Under the pieces are notes generated by a model, which ran no database searches, was not told where the DNA came from, and saw only the letters and a list, made by a program, of their open reading frames with translations. Below, piece after piece: positions 2,708 to 33,752 of a DNA stretch of 64,000 nt (positions are counted from its first letter, which is position 1; each line of letters begins with the position of its first letter). The DNA is from a virus. Taxonomy: Duplodnaviria > Caudoviricetes. A program made the position numbers and the translations under genes. The stretch spans positions 1 through 64,000 of IMG/VR virus record IMGVR_UViG_3300029928_000001; one strand, given 5' to 3'.

Positions 2708-4111
2708 ATGGATATACACAAAATTAGTTTATTATCAGCTATTGGATGTAATTTATAGTGTAAATATTGTAATATTGATAAAACTTTAAATAATTCTGTA
2801 TCTACAATTTTAAATAACACAATCGAAGCTTTAAAAGATGGATCTTACCTAAATAATATTATTTCAATTTTAAATAAATTTGATTAGCCAATAAAAAATA
2901 TTGAAAGTATAGAAATTTGGGGACAAGAGCCTACAATGACATTAATGTATTTAGCTGATAAATGGGAAGATTGGGCAAATTCTTTTATTAATCTTGATAG
3001 AATTTTTTTCTCTACTAACGGTATGGCGAATATTGATTCAATTATTTATTTTATTAAACAAGTAGATAAATATAGTAAACGACAATTAGTTTTAAATATT
3101 TAGGTATCTTATGATGGAGAAAAAAGTACTAATGAAATTAGAGGTGCTAATAGTAATATTATAAAAGAAAATATTAGTGCTTTAATACTTTTTTTAAATT
3201 CATATCAATTCAAAAATATTAAAGTTGATATATTCTTCCATGGGGTTTTAAGTAATTATTTAGCAAAACAATTAAATGATTTCAATAAATTAGAAGAATA
3301 TATAAATGAAATAGATATATTTTTAAATGATTTACGTTCTATATCTATGAATAAATTTGTTTCAATCGGAACAATGACTTTATAGAATGAAAATGGCGGA
3401 GAATATACTACCGAAGATGGTGTTATTTTAGCTGAAATCATGCGTAAATTAGATTATATAAAAAATTCTAAACAAACATTTATAAATGAACATCAATGTC
3501 CGATTTCATTAGATATTATTGGTGGCGTTAGTGAAATTATTTTAGATAAGTTTAGATCAGATAAAGATATTATTAATTAGTTTATTTTAAATCCAAATGA
3601 ACATACTTTTTGTACTTTTTGCGCTCCTTTGGTCGGAGATCTTAAAGTAATGTATGATGGAACAATTGTTTCTTGCCAAAATGCTATTTACGATATTTTT
3701 GGTATTGAAGAAGATAAAGTTGAAAAAAATATTCGTAATTATGCGAGAATCTCTGAATATAAACATAATCATTTGTTTAATCCATTAACTGCTTCTGATG
3801 AAATTATTGATATTTATATCAATTATGTTGAAAAAAGTATGCATAATGGCGTTGGGCAATTTATGTTGTCTACTTTAGCTAATTATATATACATAATGGC
3901 AAAAACAGGTCAAGTTTCTAGCAGTTATTTAACTGATTTTGAAAAAATAAAACGGCATGCTTTTTATTTAACTAACATAAATACTTGTTATTATAATTTA
4001 GTTGTTTTATCAGGCTCAGCTTTTACACGAAATACAAGTGATATTCGATTATTTTGTAATGGAGTATTAGATTTATTAGATAAAGATATAGAGGATATAT
4101 TAAATGTATAA
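2708..4111 (+). CDS. Radical SAM protein with SPASM/twitch-like C-terminus (467 aa, TAG=Gln)
   Basis: CNL[TAG]CKYC motif, WGQEP, FSTNG, [TAG]VSYDG, C...DGTIVSC; 5 in-frame TAG and no TAA/TGA until 4109. Confidence 0.88.
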
Positions 4112-5540
4112 TAATTATTCAACACAAGAAAAAGAATTATTTAATTATTATTTAGATAATGATGCTTTTCCTATACCAAATAATGATAAAATTTTAAACA
4201 TTAACAAACATGGGTTAGAATTAATTGTTCGACCAAATTGTAATCAAACTTGCGAATATTGTTATATATATTAGCATGGAAATGAATTATACCCTGATAA
4301 TCATTTTTCTAAAGAAGAACAATTAAAACATATACAATTAATTTTAGATTGGATTTTTTTTGAAAGAAGAAATTATTTTTATAAAATTGAATTATTTGCT
4401 GGAGATTTATTTTATGATGAAATTTTTATAGATTTTTTAAATTTATATGAAACTTATTTAAAACAATTTAAAAAAGAATATGATTATATTTTTAAAATTC
4501 GCTCTACAATTATTATTCCTAGTAATATGCGCTTTGTCGTTGAAAAGCCAGAAATAGCAAAAAAAGTAAAAGAATTTCATGATTATTTTTTAAAAGAATA
4601 TAATTTAAAAATAGCATTTTCTTGGTCTAGTGATGGTCCTTATGGAACTTTTGAACGAGAAAGAATAGAATTGGATGATTCATATTTTGATCAAATTTTT
4701 AAATATTGTTTTAGTATGGATGCTGGATATCATCCAATGACTTCGGCTCATAATGTTTTCTTTTTAAAAGATAATTATGACTGGTGGCTAAGAAAGATGA
4801 AAGAATTTGCCCCAGAAGATACAGATTATCGTTATTGTGATTTTGCTCCTTCTTTCTTAGAAGTTCGTAATGGTAAAAGTTGGACTGAAGAATCTATTCA
4901 AGCTTATTTAGATTTTTTAACTTATGCCATGGAAAAAAGATATGAGATATGTGGAAGTAATATTGAAATGTTGACAGAGCATTTTTTTGCTTCAGACCTT
5001 GCTCAACAACATAATTTACCACGAACAACTGGATATGATCATTTATCATTAAATTATTTTGAAGATAGTATGAAACAAATAGAAAGTTATTCTTGCGGAC
5101 TACAATCAGAAATACATATTAATTGTATTAATATGTCTTTTGTACCTTGTCATCGCACCGCTTATCCATTATTTACAGGAGCATATTTTATTTTAAGCAA
5201 TGATAATAGTAAAATTATTGATATAAAAGTTAATAATTTTAGTACTTATTATACATTAAAAACTGCCAGTATACAAAATGTACCGGTTTGTAATATTTGT
5301 GAATACAAAAATTTATGTATAAAAGGTTGTCCTGGAGCGCAATATGAAGATTCAGGAGAATTATTTTTACCAATTCCTTCAGTATGTAATTTATTCCGTA
5401 AAAAACTTGATCATTTAATTAAATTATATAATGATTATAATATATTACAAAATGCTATTGATAAAAAATTTATTACTGGAAAAGCAAAAGATTTTTTTAT
5501 AAAAAAATCTAAAGAATTGGGGTATGATTTATATGAATGA
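4104..5540 (+). CDS. Radical SAM/SPASM maturase (478 aa, TAG=Gln)
   Basis: CNQTCEYC motif upstream of single in-frame TAG 4272; SPASM SCG...PCHR...CNICEYKNLCIKGC...C. Confidence 0.9.
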
Positions 5541-7731: not shown

Positions 7732-7765
7732 ACACCTTTGTTGTGAGCGAAGCGAACAGCAAAAA

Positions 7766-7921: not shown

Positions 7922-7961
7922 CACAGAACTGAATATATGAGGTGAGCATAAGCGAACCTCA

Positions 7962-8080
7962 TAGGCACAAACAGCAATTTTAACAGATCCTAACTGTTAA
8001 CAGGAGTTCGAATCTCCTTTTGCGCGTCCGGCGCAAATAGTCAAGCGGATAAGACCACAGTATATATTCTTAGTGCCTAG
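7962..8080 (+). ncRNA. Stem-ACAGCAA module copy 2 carrying a circularly permuted tRNA-Glu-like domain (Y-RNA-like)
   Basis: TAGGCAC/GTGCCTA-G stem; inside: ACTGT-TAAC-T arm-TTTGCGC-gtccg-GCGCAAA-D arm-ACAGT (7993-8061). Confidence 0.78.
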
Positions 8081-8090
8081 TAACTTTTAA

Positions 8091-8178
8091 GCGGCGGTGT
8101 TGGAATCGGGTAGACAATTCGGTCTTAAAAACCGATGAGCGCCAGCTCGTGCGGGTTCGAATCCCGCTCGCCGCACCA
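8091..8178 (+). tRNA. tRNA-Leu(TAA)
   Basis: TCGGT-CTTAAAA-ACCGA, long variable arm, A73, CCA. Confidence 0.92.
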
Positions 8179-8185
8179 CAGATAT

Positions 8186-8261
8186 GCTAACATGGCGCAA
8201 TTGGCAGCGCAGCGCTCTTGTAAAGCGCAGGTTGAGAGTTCGATTCTCTCTGTTAGCTCCA
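8186..8261 (+). tRNA. tRNA-Thr(TGT)
   Basis: CGCT-CTTGTAA-AGCG, T73, CCA. Confidence 0.92.
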
Positions 8262-8319: not shown

Positions 8320-8407
8320 TTTATTTACCGAACTTGCCAAGCTTCTTCTTAGCTCAAATCGGCAAGACTTTTATTCTTAGTGAGTTAATAATTAACTCAC
8401 TTAATAT

Positions 8408-8496: not shown

Positions 8497-8570
8497 GCAG
8501 AATTAGTATAACAGTAGTATCTCAGTCTTCCAAGCTGAGGGCACGAGGTCAGCACTCGTATTCTGCTCCA
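8497..8570 (+). tRNA. tRNA-Gly(TCC), atypical T-loop
   Basis: TCAGT-CTTCCAA-GCTGA, GCAGAAT/ATTCTGC, T73, CCA. Confidence 0.85.
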
Positions 8571-8745
8571 AGCAGTCGATTGATCTTACCACTAGGACAT
8601 CGACAGTTGTTGGACGAAGGTAAGCGTCACGAACAACCGTTCCTGGAACTCGAGATGAACAGGTTAGCTTTATATTAAGTTGAGGGCTTAGTTCCATACG
8701 AAAATCAATACTAATATAAAGTAGTCCCAGTACGAAATCTGGGTA
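8571..8745 (+). ncRNA. Unidentified structured RNA between tRNA-Gly and tRNA-Ile
   Basis: Hairpins GTCGAT/ATCGAC, GTTGTT/AACAAC, GGAACT/AGTTCC, CCCAG/CTGGG; loop-loop complement CTTACC/GGTAAG. Confidence 0.45.
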
Positions 8746-8750
8746 TTTAT

Positions 8751-9175: not shown

Positions 9176-9464
9176 GGGGGCGTAATGGTTTCGACGGGGC
9201 GGAGAACAACACAAAATCGCAGGTGTAATTCACCTTACGAATTAATTTTAAATATAAACGCAAAAAATAATTATAGACCTGTCTTAATGGCAGCGTAATT
9301 TCTCATCTTTCTTAGTTTCTATTGGTAAACTAAGTGGTGGTTGATGATAACCTTTACATTTTATAGTTCGTATTGGTTGGCTATAACCTAAATAGCCTAT
9401 TGCGTAAGTAATTTTTGTGATTAAGTATTCGTTGCGGACGTGGGTTCGATGCCCACCGCCTTCA
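9176..9464 (+). ncRNA. ssrA: tmRNA, tag (A)AKNNYRPVLMAA
   Basis: 5' GGGGGCGTAATGGTTTCGAC, 3' GGACGTGGGTTCGATGCCCACCGCCTTCA, G3-U70, ATAAAC-GCA resume at 9260, TAA 9296; no encoded CCA. Confidence 0.93.
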
Positions 9465-9526
9465 GGTAGCAATTTTTCAAAAACCTCCACGTGGTTGCTA
9501 CTGGGTCACGCTAATATTTGAAAAAT
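9465..9526 (+). ncRNA. Minimal HDV-like (theta) ribozyme at tmRNA 3' end
   Basis: P1 GGTAGCA/TGCTACT (G1-U), P2 TTTTTCAAA/TTTGAAAAA, P3 ACC/GGT, L3 TCCACGT, P1.1 GG, J4/2 GCTAA; G1 directly follows discriminator A9464. Confidence 0.85.
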
Positions 9527-9546
9527 TTAAAAAAATATGTTATAAT
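9518..9546 (+). promoter_or_regulatory. Promoter whose predicted start coincides with RNA module copy 4
   Basis: TTGAAA-17-TATAAT with TG; -35 overlaps ribozyme P2 strand. Confidence 0.75.
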
Positions 9547-9552
9547 AAATTA

Positions 9553-9700
9553 TAGACTTTAACAGCAAAATAACTTTAATTTATTTATAAGTAAGTTATA
9601 ATATTAAAACCTTGATGTCGGTGGTTCGAGCCCACTTCGGATAATATTTTTATTCGGTAGCTCAGTTGGAAGAGCGCAAGGCCAAAGGAATGAAGTCTAG
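9553..9700 (+). ncRNA. Stem-ACAGCAA module copy 4 carrying a circularly permuted tRNA-Phe-like domain (Y-RNA-like)
   Basis: TAGACTTT/GAAGTCTA-G stem; inside: CCTTG-ATGTC-T arm-TCGGATA-atatttt-TATTCGG-D arm-CAAGG (9610-9681). Confidence 0.8.
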
Positions 9701-9753
9701 TTTAATACCAAATCAGATGAAATGAGCTTAGGGTGAGCGCAAGCGAACCCTAA

Positions 9754-9898
9754 AAGACCTATACAGCAAATATTTCATATAGATGAAATTGGGAAAATTT
9801 TACAAGCCAGTATGTAAAAGTTTTAAGCGATACTAATTATGATGAGTTGATAGAGATAACGAATAATTAGTGCTAAAGTTCTCTTTATTTAGGTCTTG
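9754..9898 (+). ncRNA. Stem-ACAGCAA module copy 5 (multi-hairpin cargo)
   Basis: AAGACCTA-TACAGCAA...TAGGTCTT-G. Confidence 0.68.
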
Positions 9899-9906
9899 TT
9901 TAATAT

Positions 9907-9977
9907 TGGGGCGTCATTTAACGGTAAGATCTGACTCTCTAAAAGTCATGACCTGGGTTCGACTCCCAGCGCCCTCG
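9907..9977 (+). tRNA. Amber suppressor tRNA (anticodon CTA), Gln-like
   Basis: TGACT-CTCTAAA-AGTCA, anticodon 9939-9941; T1,G2,G3,G73 as in tRNA-Gln; no full CCA encoded. Confidence 0.92.
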
Positions 9978-9978
9978 C

Positions 9979-10030
9979 GGAACTAAGTCTAAAACCTTCT
10001 CGTGGTAGTTCTGTTTTTACTAATTTAGAC
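9979..10030 (+). ncRNA. Theta (minimal HDV-like) ribozyme at suppressor tRNA 3' end
   Basis: P1 GGAACT/AGTTCT, P2 GTCTAAA/TTTAGAC, P3 ACC/GGT, L3 TTCTCGT, J4/2 ACTAA. Confidence 0.85.
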
Positions 10031-10079
10031 AATTAGAACAGATAGTTCATCTGTTTTTCATTTCCTTTTTGTTTATTGA

Positions 10080-10336: not shown

Positions 10337-10426
10337 AAGACGCATAAACAGCAATTTTTAATTTTCTGGTCGAAAAAATATTCTACAAAAATGTTTTTGT
10401 GGTTCGATTCCACATTATGCGTCTTG
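10337..10426 (+). ncRNA. Stem-ACAGCAA module copy 8 with T-arm-like hairpin
   Basis: AAGACGCATAA/TTATGCGTCTT-G; TGTGG-TTCGATT-CCACA inside. Confidence 0.68.
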
Positions 10427-10446
10427 AAAAGGTAAAAAGTGTTAAA

Positions 10447-30869: not shown

Positions 30870-30899
30870 ACTCTTCTACTAAAAAATGAGGTGATATTT

Positions 30900-31700
30900 A
30901 TGGGAGATATTAATATTTATTATAAAAATAAACAAGCTCGAAAAGAGCAGGCAGAAAAACATACCCTTGAAATGATAAAAAAATATTCTGGATTTATTAT
31001 GACATGCGCTATAGAAAGTCAAGTTTATAGTATAAGTTTTAATCCAAAACAACCAAAAGGAATAGAGTGTAATACTGAATTTACTTTAGTAGATAAAGAT
31101 AGCGTATCAGCAATTATTGAACGACCTTTAAATGAAAGAGTAGCGGTTCTTAATTTTGCTAGTTATAAAAATCCAGGTGGAAAATTCATTGAAGGATCAA
31201 GTGCGCAAGAAGAAAGTTTATGTCATGCTTCTTTCTTATATAATGTATTAGCCACTTGCTCTGTTTATTACGATTGGAACAACGACCACAAAAATAAAGG
31301 ATTGTATGAGAATAGAGCCATTTATTCTCCTAACGTATTATTCCAAAAGGATAAAGATGAGAGAGATTGTGATGTAATTACTTGCGCAGCGCCGAACATT
31401 ACTCCAAGCCGCAAATATAATTGGGGTGTCACAGATGAAGAAAATACTGAAGCTCTAAAATCAAGAATTAAATTTGTTTTAGACATTGCGGCTGATCAAA
31501 AGGTTGAAACCTTGATTCTTGGCGCTTTTGGTTGTGGCGTCTTCGGGCAAGACGCAGAGGAAGTAGCAAATATTTTTATGGACTATTTAACTACTACTCA
31601 TAAAGTGTTTAAAAAAGTTATTTTTGCTATTCCTGCTGGTTTCCATACTGAAAATTATGATAAATTTGAAAAAGTGTTTAAAGAAAGAGGTTTGTTATGA
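30900..31700 (+). CDS. Bacterial-type PARG / macrodomain (TIGR02452-like)
   Basis: VLNFAS..NPGG...AQEESLC, ILGAFGCGVF. Confidence 0.88.
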   Translation: MGDINIYYKNKQARKEQAEKHTLEMIKKYSGFIMTCAIESQVYSISFNPKQPKGIECNTEFTLVDKDSVSAIIERPLNERVAVLNFASYKNPGGKFIEGSSAQEESLCHASFLYNVLATCSVYYDWNNDHKNKGLYENRAIYSPNVLFQKDKDERDCDVITCAAPNITPSRKYNWGVTDEENTEALKSRIKFVLDIAADQKVETLILGAFGCGVFGQDAEEVANIFMDYLTTTHKVFKKVIFAIPAGFHTENYDKFEKVFKERGLL

Positions 31701-32161
31701 GTTTAGTGGCATATACTGATGGAGCTTGTAGCGGCAATCCTGGCATCGGTAATTGGGGGCTCGTAGTTGTTGACTCTGAAACTGATAAAGTGATTGCGGC
31801 AAAAACTGGAATTCAAAAACAATTAACTACTAATAATGAAATGGAATTAACTGCTATTGTAGTAGCTCTAAAAGAATATGGTGTTGACCAAGATGAATTT
31901 CAATATCCTGTAGTATATACAGATTCTAATTATGCTTATAAAACTTTTACTGAGTGGTATCAAGGTTGGAAACGTAATAGATGGAAACGTCCAAAGAATC
32001 AACCAGTAGCAAACTTAGAATTAATTCAAGAGTATGATGCGCTTTGGGAAAGTGGTAAAAGAATTGAGCTGCGCTGGGTGCGCGGACACAACGGGAACAA
32101 ATATAATGAAATAGCTGATAAGCTTGCTACAGGGAAGTTAACTATTGAGGAAGTTATTTGA
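31697..32161 (+). CDS. rnhA: Ribonuclease HI
   Basis: YTDGACSGNPG, TNNEMEL, TDS, WVRGH, NEIAD. Confidence 0.93.
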   Translation: MSLVAYTDGACSGNPGIGNWGLVVVDSETDKVIAAKTGIQKQLTTNNEMELTAIVVALKEYGVDQDEFQYPVVYTDSNYAYKTFTEWYQGWKRNRWKRPKNQPVANLELIQEYDALWESGKRIELRWVRGHNGNKYNEIADKLATGKLTIEEVI

Positions 32162-32243: not shown

Positions 32244-33752
32244 ATGAACACTCTTTTACAGGGATTAAAAGCAAATACTAACTTCGGTTATACAGAGAAT
32301 GGGGCAGTAACGCATATTACTACAATGTCAGACCTCTATGATATGTTTGCGCTGGGCGGTGCTTACAGAACTCGCTCTGATGAAGACTGTATTGTTTTGT
32401 TTAAGAAAGCGTATAAGGAGAATCCTACATATGCGCTTAAGTGTCTGTTTTATCTGCGCGACGTTCGCGGCGGACAAGGCGAGAGGCGGTTCTTCCGAGT
32501 ATGCTTAAAGTGGCTTGCCAATTATGATACAGAAGCGGCGGTTAGGAACATCTCTAATGTCCCGACGTTTGGCAGATACGATGATTTGTATTGCTTAGTT
32601 GGCACTAAGGCAGAAAAAGTAGCTTTTGATTTTATTAAAAAACAGTTAATGCTTGATATGGAATGCAAGACTCCATCTCTTTTAGCTAAGTGGTTAAAGA
32701 GTGAGAACACTTCTTCACTGGAAAGCGTTAAATTGGCTAAAATTACTCGTCAATATCTTGGTATGACTTCCAAACAGTATAGAAAGACTTTATCTGTTTT
32801 GCGTGCAAAAATTAACGTCCTTGAAAGACTTATGTCAGCAGGTAAATGGGCAGATATCGAGTTTGATAAGATTCCTTCCAAAGCAGGTCTTATTTACAAA
32901 AACGCATTCGCTAGACATGACGTAGAACGAATGAAGGTAAATCCGCAAGTTGTTTCTTATGAAGCATTTGCTAAGGATGAAAATACAACTGTCAATGCTA
33001 AAGCTCTGTATCCATATGAAGTAGTTCAAAAAGCTATTGATGCTATGGGCGGATTTAGTTATTGGGGTCGTTCAAAGGATGTAGCATTAGATGATACAAA
33101 TCGTTTAATGGTAAATAAATACTGGGCTAATTTAAAGGATTACTTCGATGGAGCTACTTTAAATGCACTTCCAGTTATTGATACTTCCGGTTCAATGTGG
33201 GGACTTCCAATCCATGTAGCTATTTCTCTTGGCTTGTATTGCGCAGAACGTAATAGAGGACCATTCGCAGACCATTATATTTCTTTCAGCTCTCGTCCGC
33301 AGTTGATTAGAACTGAAGGAGTAGATTTCTGTGATAAGGTTAAGAGAATTTATGAAACAAATTTATGTGAAAACACAAATATTGAAGCTACATTTGATTT
33401 AATCTTAAATACAGCTATTGAAAATAATTTATCTTCTGATGAATTACCAGAAAATATTATTGTCATCTCTGACATGGAATTTGACGCCGCTCGTGGATGG
33501 GAGTCTAATCCAGCAGAAACATTAATGGAAGGTATTGAAAAGAAGTGGAATAGAGCTGGGTATAAGATGCCTAAGCTTGTGTTTTGGAATTGCGCGGCGC
33601 GCAACGATAGAATTCCAATGAGAGATCAATATGGAATTACATTTGTTTCTGGTGCTTCTCCTGTAATCTATGAAATGATTATGAGTGGAAAAACGGCTCA
33701 GGATTTGATGTTTGATAAATTAGATTCAGATAGATATGCTGTAATTCAGTAA
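32244..33752 (+). CDS. DUF2828-family helical-repeat + vWA protein (TROVE/Ro60-like architecture)
   Basis: TENGA, RDVRGGQGER, AKW, MIDAS DTSGSM, TN, ISDMEFD, FWN. Confidence 0.82.
   Translation: MNTLLQGLKANTNFGYTENGAVTHITTMSDLYDMFALGGAYRTRSDEDCIVLFKKAYKENPTYALKCLFYLRDVRGGQGERRFFRVCLKWLANYDTEAAVRNISNVPTFGRYDDLYCLVGTKAEKVAFDFIKKQLMLDMECKTPSLLAKWLKSENTSSLESVKLAKITRQYLGMTSKQYRKTLSVLRAKINVLERLMSAGKWADIEFDKIPSKAGLIYKNAFARHDVERMKVNPQVVSYEAFAKDENTTVNAKALYPYEVVQKAIDAMGGFSYWGRSKDVALDDTNRLMVNKYWANLKDYFDGATLNALPVIDTSGSMWGLPIHVAISLGLYCAERNRGPFADHYISFSSRPQLIRTEGVDFCDKVKRIYETNLCENTNIEATFDLILNTAIENNLSSDELPENIIVISDMEFDAARGWESNPAETLMEGIEKKWNRAGYKMPKLVFWNCAARNDRIPMRDQYGITFVSGASPVIYEMIMSGKTAQDLMFDKLDSDRYAVIQ

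What the first reader, a model, noticed from the sequence alone, without database searches (positions are those of the whole stretch)
9610..9681. Second, independent permuted tRNA mimic (Phe-like)
Seen: CCTTG-ATGTC-GGTGG-TTCGAGC-CCACT-TCGGATA-[ATATTTT]-TATTCGG-TA-GCTC-AGTTGGAA-GAGC-G-CAAGG. The permutation point (anticodon loop) and handle are the same as in the 7993 element, but the tRNA body sequence is unrelated. Inference: different tRNAs have been captured repeatedly into one scaffold. One route is the natural 3'half-spacer-5'half junction of tandem tRNA genes; another is ligation of anticodon-cleaved halves.
Basis: partly seen in the sequence, partly recalled or inferred. Interest (0 to 1): 0.78.

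Follow-up and report, generated by a model that had tools for sequence, protein, structure and literature searches.

The report
Inside-out tRNA mimic on phage Y-like RNA
A large phage carries a small RNA gene that is a complete tRNA shape written in rotated order with its amino-acid end closed into a loop. It matches the known tRNA-mimic domain of bacterial Y RNAs but sits on a different, undescribed handle that travels with a Ro60-shaped phage protein.

Summary
Window 9610-9681 (+) folds as a circularly permuted cloverleaf: outer stem 3' strand, variable loop, T arm, closed 7-8 bp acceptor hairpin, D arm, outer stem 5' strand. All universal tRNA tertiary nucleotides are present.

A strict descriptor finds only this element and the 7993 element in the 178-kb genome, and none in 40 shuffles. 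Independent assemblies bridge the junction, so it is not a misassembly.

Orthologues in related phages keep the fold through compensatory changes. The whole acceptor stem is swapped.

The element lies in a promoter-driven module closed by a terminal stem plus an ACAGCAA box. About 36 more handle-plus-permuted-cloverleaf RNAs lie beside DUF2828 genes in other viral contigs. This phage's DUF2828 protein models as a Ro60 ring (Z 18.8).

The published YrlA Y-RNA domain has the same topology, and YrlA is the best Rfam match. YrlA membership fails on score, Ro-binding motif and rsr linkage.

My reading is a tRNA-shaped effector domain of a new Y-RNA-like family. "Phe-like" is not resolvable. Origin at a tandem-tRNA junction gains support, because 13 of 37 cores keep N-CCA in the loop. 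Repeated independent capture is plausible but unproven.

This scan has already noted the handle family on other DNA (at least 110 genomes) and permuted cargo in at least 17.

The parts
9518..9546 (+). Sigma-70-type promoter (TTGAAA, 17 nt, TG-extended TATAAT). It places the start at about 9553, the first base of the handle stem.
   Evidence: 11 of 12 matches. The same promoter is conserved upstream of the orthologous modules in L130 and L131.
9553..9559 (+). Handle, 5' strand of the terminal stem
   Evidence: a perfect 7-bp pairing with 9693-9699. Sister modules have the same stem position with different, complementary sequences.
9562..9568 (+). Conserved single-stranded ACAGCAA box, 2 nt after the 5' strand
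   Evidence: It is present in 7 modules of this array and upstream of 36 of the 37 non-tRNA hits among the top 40 CM hits in other phages.
9569..9609 (+). A+T-rich 5' linker of variable length (27-41 nt in orthologues)
9610..9681 (+). Permuted cloverleaf (the finding): outer stem 3' strand, variable loop, T arm, closed acceptor hairpin, D arm, outer stem 5' strand
9620..9636 (+). T arm (5 bp, loop TTCGAGC)
   Evidence: G53, T54, T55, C56, A58 and C61 are invariant in 24 cores.
9637..9657 (+). Closed acceptor-like hairpin (7 bp plus a possible eighth pair; loop 9644-9650; no CCA)
   Evidence: The stem is fully swapped yet still paired in L128 and L131, and shortened to 4 bp in L130.
9660..9675 (+). 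D arm (4 bp, loop with A14, G15, G18, G19, A21)
9682..9692 (+). 3' linker
9693..9699 (+). Handle, 3' strand of the terminal stem
7962..8079 (+). Sister module with the other permuted cloverleaf (core 7993-8061)
   Evidence: 56 bits. The orthologue is L128:345-414.
32244..33752 (+). DUF2828 + DUF7788 protein: a Ro60-like ring plus vWA domain, the candidate protein partner
   Evidence: pLDDT 76.8; Z 18.8 to Ro60 1yvr over 401 residues
10536..15084 (+). RNA-repair gene set just downstream of the RNA array: an NTase whose homologues carry PF10127 (RlaP), a calcineurin-like phosphoesterase, an RNase T-like exonuclease and an RNA ligase
   Evidence: gene order conserved in relatives

Best explanation
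9610-9681 is the tRNA-shaped effector domain of a small phage RNA that spans about 9553-9699. The RNA starts at its own promoter. Its two ends pair in a 7-bp terminal stem followed by an unpaired ACAGCAA box (the handle). Its body folds into the tRNA L-shape with a closed acceptor end and no anticodon loop. I infer that the handle is bound by the phage's Ro60-like DUF2828 ring protein, as Y-RNA stems are bound by Ro60. I further infer that the tRNA-like body docks a factor that recognises the tRNA elbow or acceptor-T helix. That factor could be RNase P, the CCA-adding enzyme, tRNA modification enzymes, or the RNA-repair enzymes encoded next to the array. The particle would thereby be tied to tRNA surveillance or repair during infection. 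Shown here: the fold, its selection, the promoter, the handle, family-wide linkage to DUF2828 genes, and the Ro60 fold of the protein. Inferred: RNA-protein binding, the docked partner, and the biological role.
For: Fold: the MFE equals the permuted cloverleaf. U8, A9, A14, G15-C48, G18, G19, A21, G26, G46, T54, T55, C56 and A58 are all present.

The YrlA model aligns its tRNA-like domain (positions 23-85) to 9612-9679 in the same order of arms.

Selection: in orthologues L128, L129 and L131 the acceptor stem is completely replaced but still forms 7 bp. The outer stem goes from C-C-T-T-G/C-A-A-G-G through a G.U intermediate to a fully compensated pair.

A strain variant has 4 stem substitutions, all pair-preserving, plus a loop deletion.

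Across 24 cores, 97% of cells pair and 20 of 21 pairs change on both sides. The invariant columns are the tRNA tertiary nucleotides.

Family: of the top 40 CM hits in 84 sources, 37 overlap no tRNA, and 36 of those are framed by stem plus ACAGCAA. All lie on the DUF2828 strand within 10 kb of a DUF2828 gene. There are no hits in 0.95 Mb of control loci.

Partner: DUF2828 is in this genome. The ten best structural matches by Z are all Ro60/Rsr/TROVE over the full length, with Z from 13.2 to 18.8.

Context: RNA ligase, phosphoesterase, exonuclease and an RlaP-type NTase lie directly downstream.

Against: No expression data exist, because no RNA run holds the region.

The DUF2828 gene lies 22.5 kb from the array in this genome, so linkage here is by genome rather than by neighbourhood.

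Binding of the handle to DUF2828 is untested.

The 80 comparison loci were chosen by DUF2828, and the control loci are not matched for tRNA arrays. Co-occurrence is therefore suggestive, not a clean test.

The cores used for pair counts were picked by a descriptor or model that demands pairing. The percentage paired is biased, although the variety of pairs is not.

The acceptor hairpin is only 4 bp in L130, so any role that needs a 7-bp acceptor is not conserved in this orthologue group.
Confidence: 0.62

Rival explanations
1. Two-piece tRNA-like RNA. RNase P cuts in the acceptor loop, before 9651 or one base earlier. The 3' side is trimmed and given CCA. The result is a nicked tRNA body with a free acceptor end whose halves stay paired, as in M. 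smegmatis YrlA and two-piece tmRNA. This is a refinement of the best explanation rather than an exclusive alternative.
For: The acceptor stem is 7-8 bp and stacks on a 5-bp T stem. M. smegmatis YrlA with a 7-bp stem is cut by RNase P and receives CCA (PMC4201824). 13 of 37 related cores encode N-CCA exactly after the acceptor 3' strand, and 11 of those 13 keep 7 paired positions.
Against: This element and its orthologues encode no CCA. L130 has only a 4-bp hairpin. A possible eighth pair (A9644-T9650) would disfavour canonical cleavage. There are no read-end data.
Confidence: 0.12
2. A free-standing decoy or sponge that works independently of DUF2828. The tRNA-shaped RNA would soak up a host tRNA-directed defence factor or a tRNA-binding enzyme.
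For: The element is a complete tRNA elbow and body. It lies in a phage tRNA array next to tRNA-repair-type enzymes. Neighbouring modules display anticodon-like hairpins (not tested here).
Against: It has no anticodon loop, so it cannot be a substrate mimic for anticodon nucleases. The conserved handle would have no role in this reading, yet it frames 36 of the 37 non-tRNA hits among the top 40 CM hits.
Confidence: 0.13
3. A true permuted tRNA gene. The ends would be cut and ligated, for example by the phage RNA ligase, into a circle. The acceptor loop would then be opened to give a decoding tRNA, as in Cyanidioschyzon merolae.
For: The order is 3' half then 5' half. An RNA ligase gene lies 4 kb downstream. 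'AA' precedes the outer stem in all four orthologues.
Against: The flanks give no canonical anticodon loop. The would-be position 33 is C or A, not U. No bulge-helix-bulge motif is evident. No CCA is encoded, although this array's tRNAs do encode it: tRNA-Leu and tRNA-Pro read CCA at their 3' ends. The L130 acceptor stem is 4 bp. The linkers vary from 27 to 41 nt.
Confidence: 0.04
4. A neutral relic of recombination between tandem tRNA genes, or a processing punctuation mark, with no role as an RNA in its own right.
For: Tandem tRNA junctions are the natural look-alike. They give weak hits to my model (window 8144-8216, 26 bits) and to BLAST. N-CCA relics point to such an origin.
Against: No flanking tRNA halves exist. 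Compensatory changes occur in all four helices between orthologues and strains. It has its own conserved promoter and handle. The same architecture recurs in about 35 other phage contigs.
Confidence: 0.05

Closest known systems
YrlA-type bacterial and mycobacteriophage Y RNAs bound by Ro60/Rsr (Rfam RF02553; Chen et al. 2014, PMC4201824; Wang et al. 2018, bioRxiv 10.1101/312249)
   Same: The order of arms is identical: outer stem, variable region, T arm, closed acceptor-like hairpin, D arm. The same tertiary nucleotides are present. YrlA is the best Rfam match for this element (22.9 bits) and for 6 of the 8 related cores tested (22-38 bits). It occurs in a genome that encodes a Ro60-fold protein and RNA-repair genes. 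A 7-bp acceptor stem is also seen in M. smegmatis YrlA.
   Different: The score is far below the gathering threshold of 69 bits. There is no GNCGAAN0-1G Ro-binding motif. Instead there is a 7-bp terminal stem plus an ACAGCAA box, which does not align to the YrlA stem. The protein is DUF2828/DUF7788, not Pfam TROVE, with no sequence-level match to solved Ro60 structures, and it lies 22.5 kb away. The genome has several modules with different cargos.
Circularly permuted tRNA genes of Cyanidioschyzon merolae and some other algae and archaea
   Same: The 3' half lies upstream of the 5' half, joined through a closed acceptor end, with the termini at the anticodon stem.
   Different: Those genes are matured into decoding tRNAs through a circular intermediate made by the splicing endonuclease and ligase. 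Here no anticodon loop can be reconstituted from the flanks, and no such endonuclease is known in phages or bacteria.
Two-piece (permuted) tmRNA genes
   Same: The gene order is T arm, acceptor 3' strand, loop, acceptor 5' strand, in a genome that also has a standard tmRNA.
   Different: This element has a full D arm, no G3-U70 pair and no tag reading frame. Neither ARAGORN nor the Rfam permuted-tmRNA model calls it.
Junctions of tandem tRNA genes (dimeric pre-tRNAs)
   Same: A T arm of one tRNA followed within a few nucleotides by the D arm of the next. This is a likely evolutionary source: N-CCA is retained in the loop of 13 of 37 related cores.
   Different: Here the two acceptor strands and the two outer-stem strands are complementary to each other, and neither half belongs to a complete tRNA.

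Membership tests
YrlA (Rfam RF02553) | tRNA-like domain with T arm, closed acceptor-like hairpin and D arm in permuted order | tested here: met
   alignment to model positions 23-85. fold. descriptor.
YrlA (Rfam RF02553) | Score at or above the curated gathering threshold (69 bits) | tested here: not met
   22.9 bits. Related cores score 22-38 bits.
YrlA (Rfam RF02553) | GNCGAAN0-1G motif near the 5' end (presumed Rsr contact; PMC4201824) | tested here: not met
   The motif is absent from 9553-9609. The full-length YrlA alignment of a relative does not match the motif either.
YrlA (Rfam RF02553) | Encoded within about 4 kb of a TROVE-domain rsr gene on the same strand | tested here: not met
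   PF05731 is absent from the genome. The Ro60-fold DUF2828 gene is on the same strand but 22.5 kb downstream.
Canonical tRNA | Contiguous acceptor, D, anticodon and T arms with an anticodon loop and a free 3' end | tested here: not met
   ARAGORN and Rfam tRNA give no call at 9610-9681. The acceptor end is closed and there is no anticodon loop.
Permuted tRNA genes (C. merolae type) | Flanks that restore a canonical 7-nt anticodon loop and a processing motif at the termini | tested here: not met
   The would-be position 33 is C or A. The linkers are unconserved in length.
Two-piece tmRNA | G3-U70 pair, tag reading frame, detection by ARAGORN or RF04321 | tested here: not met
   Position 3:70 is U-A. 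No call at this place.
Stem + ACAGCAA handle RNAs travelling with DUF2828 (undescribed; noted by this scan) | Terminal stem that covaries between copies, with the ACAGCAA box 0-2 nt after the 5' strand | tested here: met
   seven modules in 7.7-10.4 kb with perfect, differing 7-bp stems; 36 related cores framed in the same way.
Stem + ACAGCAA handle RNAs travelling with DUF2828 (undescribed; noted by this scan) | DUF2828 gene in the same genome | tested here: met
   (PF11443 97.6 bits, PF25043 133 bits)
Stem + ACAGCAA handle RNAs travelling with DUF2828 (undescribed; noted by this scan) | Physical binding of the handle by the protein | not testable with these tools
   No RNA-protein prediction or data are available.
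Ro60/Rsr (for the partner protein) | HEAT-repeat ring plus C-terminal vWA domain | tested here: met
   AF2 model with pLDDT 76.8. Z 18.8, rmsd 5.0 over 401 residues to 1yvr; the ten best entries by Z are all Ro60/Rsr/TROVE; vWA domains score Z about 10 over residues 295-485. Foldseek E 7e-7.
Ro60/Rsr (for the partner protein) | Sequence membership in Pfam TROVE | tested here: not met
   (no match at E<=1). (profile against PDB sequences: none).

The most novel reading that the evidence does not exclude
Phages with a Ro60-like DUF2828 ring carry a kit of Y-like RNAs built on one handle, with interchangeable tRNA-derived cargos. Whole inside-out tRNAs such as this one would act as adaptors. They would bring the ring and the adjacent ligase, NTase, phosphoesterase and exonuclease set to tRNAs damaged by host defence nucleases, or shield those tRNAs. 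That would be a programmable RNA-guided tRNA repair and surveillance particle, with new cargos recruited repeatedly from tandem-tRNA junctions.
Probability: 0.3. Interest if true: 0.85.

Novelty: new variant of a known kind. Interest (0 to 1): 0.68.

Why it matters
The function of the tRNA-like domain of bacterial Y RNAs is still unknown. This element shows the same inside-out tRNA on a different protein-binding handle, in a phage that pairs it with a divergent Ro60-fold protein and a compact RNA-repair gene set.

The domain is under clear structural selection and recurs in dozens of phages. That makes the effector-domain question testable in a simple system with one phage, one protein and a few small RNAs. 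It also suggests that Ro/Y-RNA-type particles are more widespread and diverse in viruses than TROVE-based searches show.

The N-CCA relics give concrete support to the idea that Y-RNA tRNA mimics arose from dimeric tRNA transcripts.

Tried and rejected
1. Close relatives by exact DNA words of the element in IMG/VR: one chance match in a G+C-rich coding region.

2. The tandem-GA hairpin word in IMG/VR: many unrelated hits, none with the module.

3. Relatives through the RNA ligase gene: two loci without tRNA arrays. Relatives through the downstream NTase in IMG/VR: none. The protein-cluster route worked instead.

4. A genome-wide count of ACAGCAA plus any 7-bp closing stem is not above shuffles. 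Only the clustered copies that share the AGAC/GTCT ends form a family.

5. The single-sequence AF2 model of DUF2828 was unusable (pLDDT 44). The model built from a 48-sequence alignment was used.

6. A profile of DUF2828 against PDB sequences gave no match.

7. RNA evidence: no RNA holder was listed for the region, so expression, ends and processing could not be examined.

8. BLAST of the element against GenBank phages gave only ordinary tandem-tRNA junctions, such as Ile-Asn, unknown-Phe and Ile-Ile.

9. Assigning the body to one isoacceptor failed. My identity measure with free end gaps is crude and gave some artefactually low values.

10. The paper's text does not spell out the motif, and Rfam gave no such hit in the array.

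11. A permuted tmRNA reading was considered and rejected.

Full report
WHAT IS THERE

The window is the first 64 kb of a 178,419-bp viral record with 31% G+C. Positions 7.4-10.5 kb on the + strand hold an RNA gene array with ten tRNAs (nine called by ARAGORN, one more by Rfam alone) and a tmRNA. No ORF of 40 aa or more overlaps 9491-10075.

On their own they fold, as both MFE and centroid, into:
- a 5-bp outer stem;
- a 5-nt variable loop;
- a 5-bp T arm with loop TTCGAGC;
- a closed hairpin of 7 bp, or 8 with the A-T pair at 9644/9650;
- two linker bases, a 4-bp D arm and one further base before the outer stem closes.

Every nucleotide that builds the tRNA L-shape is in place: U8, A9, A14, G15 with C48, G18, G19, A21, G26, G46, T54, T55, C56 and A58 (read). 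There is no anticodon loop and no free or encoded CCA. Neither ARAGORN nor the Rfam tRNA model calls a tRNA here.

IS IT MORE THAN CHANCE?

The folding energy alone is unremarkable (z -1.2). I therefore wrote a descriptor for the architecture: a T arm with a T-loop word, an abutting 7-bp hairpin, a D arm, and an outer stem.

- It hits exactly two places in the whole genome on both strands: this element and 7993-8061.
- It hits nothing in 40 first-order shuffles.
- It hits nothing in 0.95 Mb of unrelated viral loci.
- It does not fire on the real tandem-tRNA junctions of the array.

Contigs assembled independently from four runs of two studies run through 9521-9900 with 0-3 differences, or through 9580-9900 in a diverged strain. 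Misassembly is excluded.

SELECTION

I reached relatives through the protein cluster of the gene just downstream. Three related phage contigs carry the orthologous module at the same place, after the tmRNA and before the suppressor tRNA.

- In L128, L129 and L131 all seven acceptor pairs are different in sequence yet still pair.
- The outer stem passes from T-A to T.G to C-G.
- In L130 the hairpin is shortened to 4 bp while the rest is kept.
- The diverged strain in run X1 has four stem substitutions. All preserve pairing: two change Watson-Crick pairs to wobble, one changes wobble to Watson-Crick, and one changes A-U to G.U. It also has a D-loop change to the canonical GGTA and a 1-nt deletion in the acceptor loop.
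- The 7993 element also has an orthologue in L128, with a compensated T-stem pair.

THE SCAFFOLD

A strong promoter sits at 9518-9546 (TTGAAA, 17 nt, TG-extended TATAAT). It places the start at about 9553 and is conserved in L130 and L131.

At 9553-9559 begins a 7-nt strand that pairs perfectly with 9693-9699. Two bases after it lies ACAGCAA. Seven modules between 7.7 and 10.4 kb have this layout, with different but complementary stems. The 7993 element sits in one of them, at 7962-8079.

A genome-wide count of the box plus any closing stem is not above shuffles. The family is defined by the clustered copies that also share the AGAC/GTCT ends.

THE WIDER FAMILY

Earlier notes of this scan pointed to a DUF2828 protein as partner, and I tested that here.

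The protein:
- The genome encodes one DUF2828/DUF7788 protein at 32244-33752.
- With a 48-sequence alignment it models at pLDDT 76.8.
- Its ten best solved-structure matches by Z are all Ro60, Rsr or TROVE over the full length. The best is Z 18.8, rmsd 5.0 over 401 residues to 1yvr, with Foldseek E 7e-7. vWA domains match the C-terminal third.
- Pfam TROVE does not match, and a sequence profile finds no solved relative. The relationship is visible at the fold level only.

The RNAs:
- In 80 IMG/VR loci centred on DUF2828 homologues (1.38 Mb), the strict descriptor finds 22 permuted cloverleaves, all on the DUF2828 strand.
- A covariance model built from 24 cores gives about 40 hits of 44 bits or more in 84 sources.
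- Of those, 37 overlap no ARAGORN tRNA. Thirty-six of the 37 are framed by a stem plus an ACAGCAA-type box 9-41 nt upstream, with the complementary strand 3-34 nt downstream, mostly 3-13.
- Weaker hits are tandem-tRNA junctions without handles, for example window 8144-8216.
- Across the 24 cores, 97% of cells pair and 20 of 21 pairs change on both sides. The invariant columns are U8, A14, G18, G53, T54, T55, C56, A58 and C61.
- The percentage paired is biased, because the cores were selected for pairing. The diversity of pair types and the identity of the invariant bases are not biased in that way.

COMPARISON WITH WHAT IS KNOWN

The only Rfam family that matches the element is YrlA, the Y-RNA-like partner of bacterial Ro60. 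The match is 22.9 bits over model positions 23-85, which is the tRNA-like domain with the same order of arms. Six of the eight related cores I tested also hit YrlA, at 22-38 bits.

The literature describes YrlA in just these terms:
- T arm, closed acceptor-like stem and D arm;
- substrates of TruB and DusA;
- M. smegmatis YrlA, which has a 7-bp stem, is cut by RNase P and given CCA (PMC4201824);

Membership in YrlA nevertheless fails on three tested features:
- the gathering score (69 bits);
- the GNCGAAN0-1G motif, which is absent and which the handle does not align to;
- linkage to a TROVE gene within 4 kb.

I found neither DUF2828 nor the ACAGCAA handle described in the searchable papers. 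A comparative study of jumbo phages mentions only TROVE proteins 'with a tRNA-like partner' in general terms (PMC7824862). I therefore file the element as a new variant of the Y-RNA tRNA-mimic kind.

ORIGIN AND THE 'CAPTURE' IDEA

The two elements of this window differ in class features:
- this one has a 4-bp D stem, an 8-nt D loop, a 5-nt variable loop and T loop TTCGAGC;
- the other has a 3-bp D stem, a 10-nt D loop, a 4-nt variable loop and T loop TTCGAAT.

They therefore derive from different tRNA types, or are very old paralogues. Each is conserved separately in L128.

Among 37 distinct cores:
- 13 encode N-CCA exactly after the acceptor 3' strand, inside the closing loop;
- 13 keep, upstream, a second copy of the outer-stem 5' strand that can form a small anticodon-arm-like hairpin.

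Both features are what a slice through a tRNA dimer would leave. This supports the tandem-junction route.

No core is more than 0.83 identical to any of 624 tRNAs from these phages. This element's best matches are Ile, Pro, Lys and Arg at 0.74-0.75, with Phe at 0.71. 'Phe-like' and recent capture are therefore unproven. Cores are on average somewhat closer to each other than to tRNAs (0.58 against 0.48 by a crude measure). That fits either shared ancestry or shared constraint. Nothing supports ligation of cleaved halves.

HOW IT MOST LIKELY WORKS

Shown here:
- a promoter-driven RNA whose ends pair;
- a conserved single-stranded box;
- a tRNA-shaped body under structural selection;
- a Ro60-fold protein in the same genome;
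- family-wide proximity of such RNAs to that protein's gene;
- an RNA-repair gene set directly downstream of the array.

Inferred, by analogy with Ro60 and Y RNAs:
- the handle binds the DUF2828 ring;
- the tRNA-like body recruits or occupies a factor that reads the tRNA elbow;
- this links the particle to tRNA surveillance or repair during infection.

For this orthologue group RNase P cleavage is possible, since the stem is 7-8 bp, but it is not required, since there is no CCA and L130 has only 4 bp. For the N-CCA-bearing relatives cleavage is more likely.

Rival readings are scored lower for the reasons given with each: a free decoy, a true permuted tRNA gene, and a neutral relic or punctuation mark.

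VERDICT

The element is a new variant of a known kind.

The same handle family was already noted by this scan on other DNA in at least 110 genomes, and permuted cargo in at least 17. My tests were made independently on this genome and on loci fetched here.

Noticed in passing
window 9465-9523: A weak match to an HDV-like ribozyme family (24.8 bits, gathering 44) starts right at the 3' end of the tmRNA (9176-9465) and overlaps the -35 of the next promoter.
   Followed up: no
window 8333-8367; L128:677-711; L130:759-793; L131:902-936: A hairpin scores just under the gathering threshold for the abiF RNA family (32.3 and 30.8 bits against 37). It is conserved at the same place in three relatives.
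   Followed up: no
window 7739-7760, 7935-7959, 9724-9751: Three hairpins have covarying stems and a conserved loop (TGAGC, 3-4 nt, GCGAA), each ending a few bases before a handle module. These are the only three in the genome. The same 16-nt word occurs in hairpin context in many unrelated viral contigs, several just upstream of an ORF start.
   Followed up: partly
window 10337-10427; L128:4657-4733; L130:4627-4701; L131:3898-3974: This handle module has a T arm directly abutting the handle's 3' strand, so the handle stands where an acceptor stem would. ARAGORN calls the orthologues tRNAs with a 2-nt anticodon, and Rfam tRNA gives about 41 bits.
   Followed up: partly
L138, L144, L145, L146, L148, L149, L155, L183, L193, L207, L208, L210 (coordinates): 13 of 37 permuted cloverleaves in other phages encode N-CCA immediately after the acceptor 3' strand, inside the closing loop. 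13 of 37 have an upstream duplicate of the outer-stem 5' strand that gives an alternative small hairpin.
   Followed up: partly
L128:2276-2947 and 3774-4460; L130:3280-4248: Homing-endonuclease-type genes (GIY-YIG, PD-(D/E)XK) are inserted between RNA modules of the array in relatives but not in this window.
   Followed up: no
window 8568-8750: About 180 nt between a tRNA called only by Rfam (8497-8567) and tRNA-Ile have no ORF and no Rfam match.
   Followed up: no
window 9519-9552: Contig depth jumps 10-20 fold over the promoter, with many loose ends leading into other sequence. This promoter word is shared by many other contigs in the same samples, and by four places in this array.
   Followed up: no
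window 30891-32161: A microbial-type PARG/macro-domain protein and an RNase H lie directly upstream of the DUF2828 gene. A radical SAM/SPASM enzyme lies downstream.
   Followed up: no
window 9907-9978: A tRNA with anticodon CTA (amber suppressor type) is present here and in all relatives. This suggests TAG recoding in this phage group.
   Followed up: no
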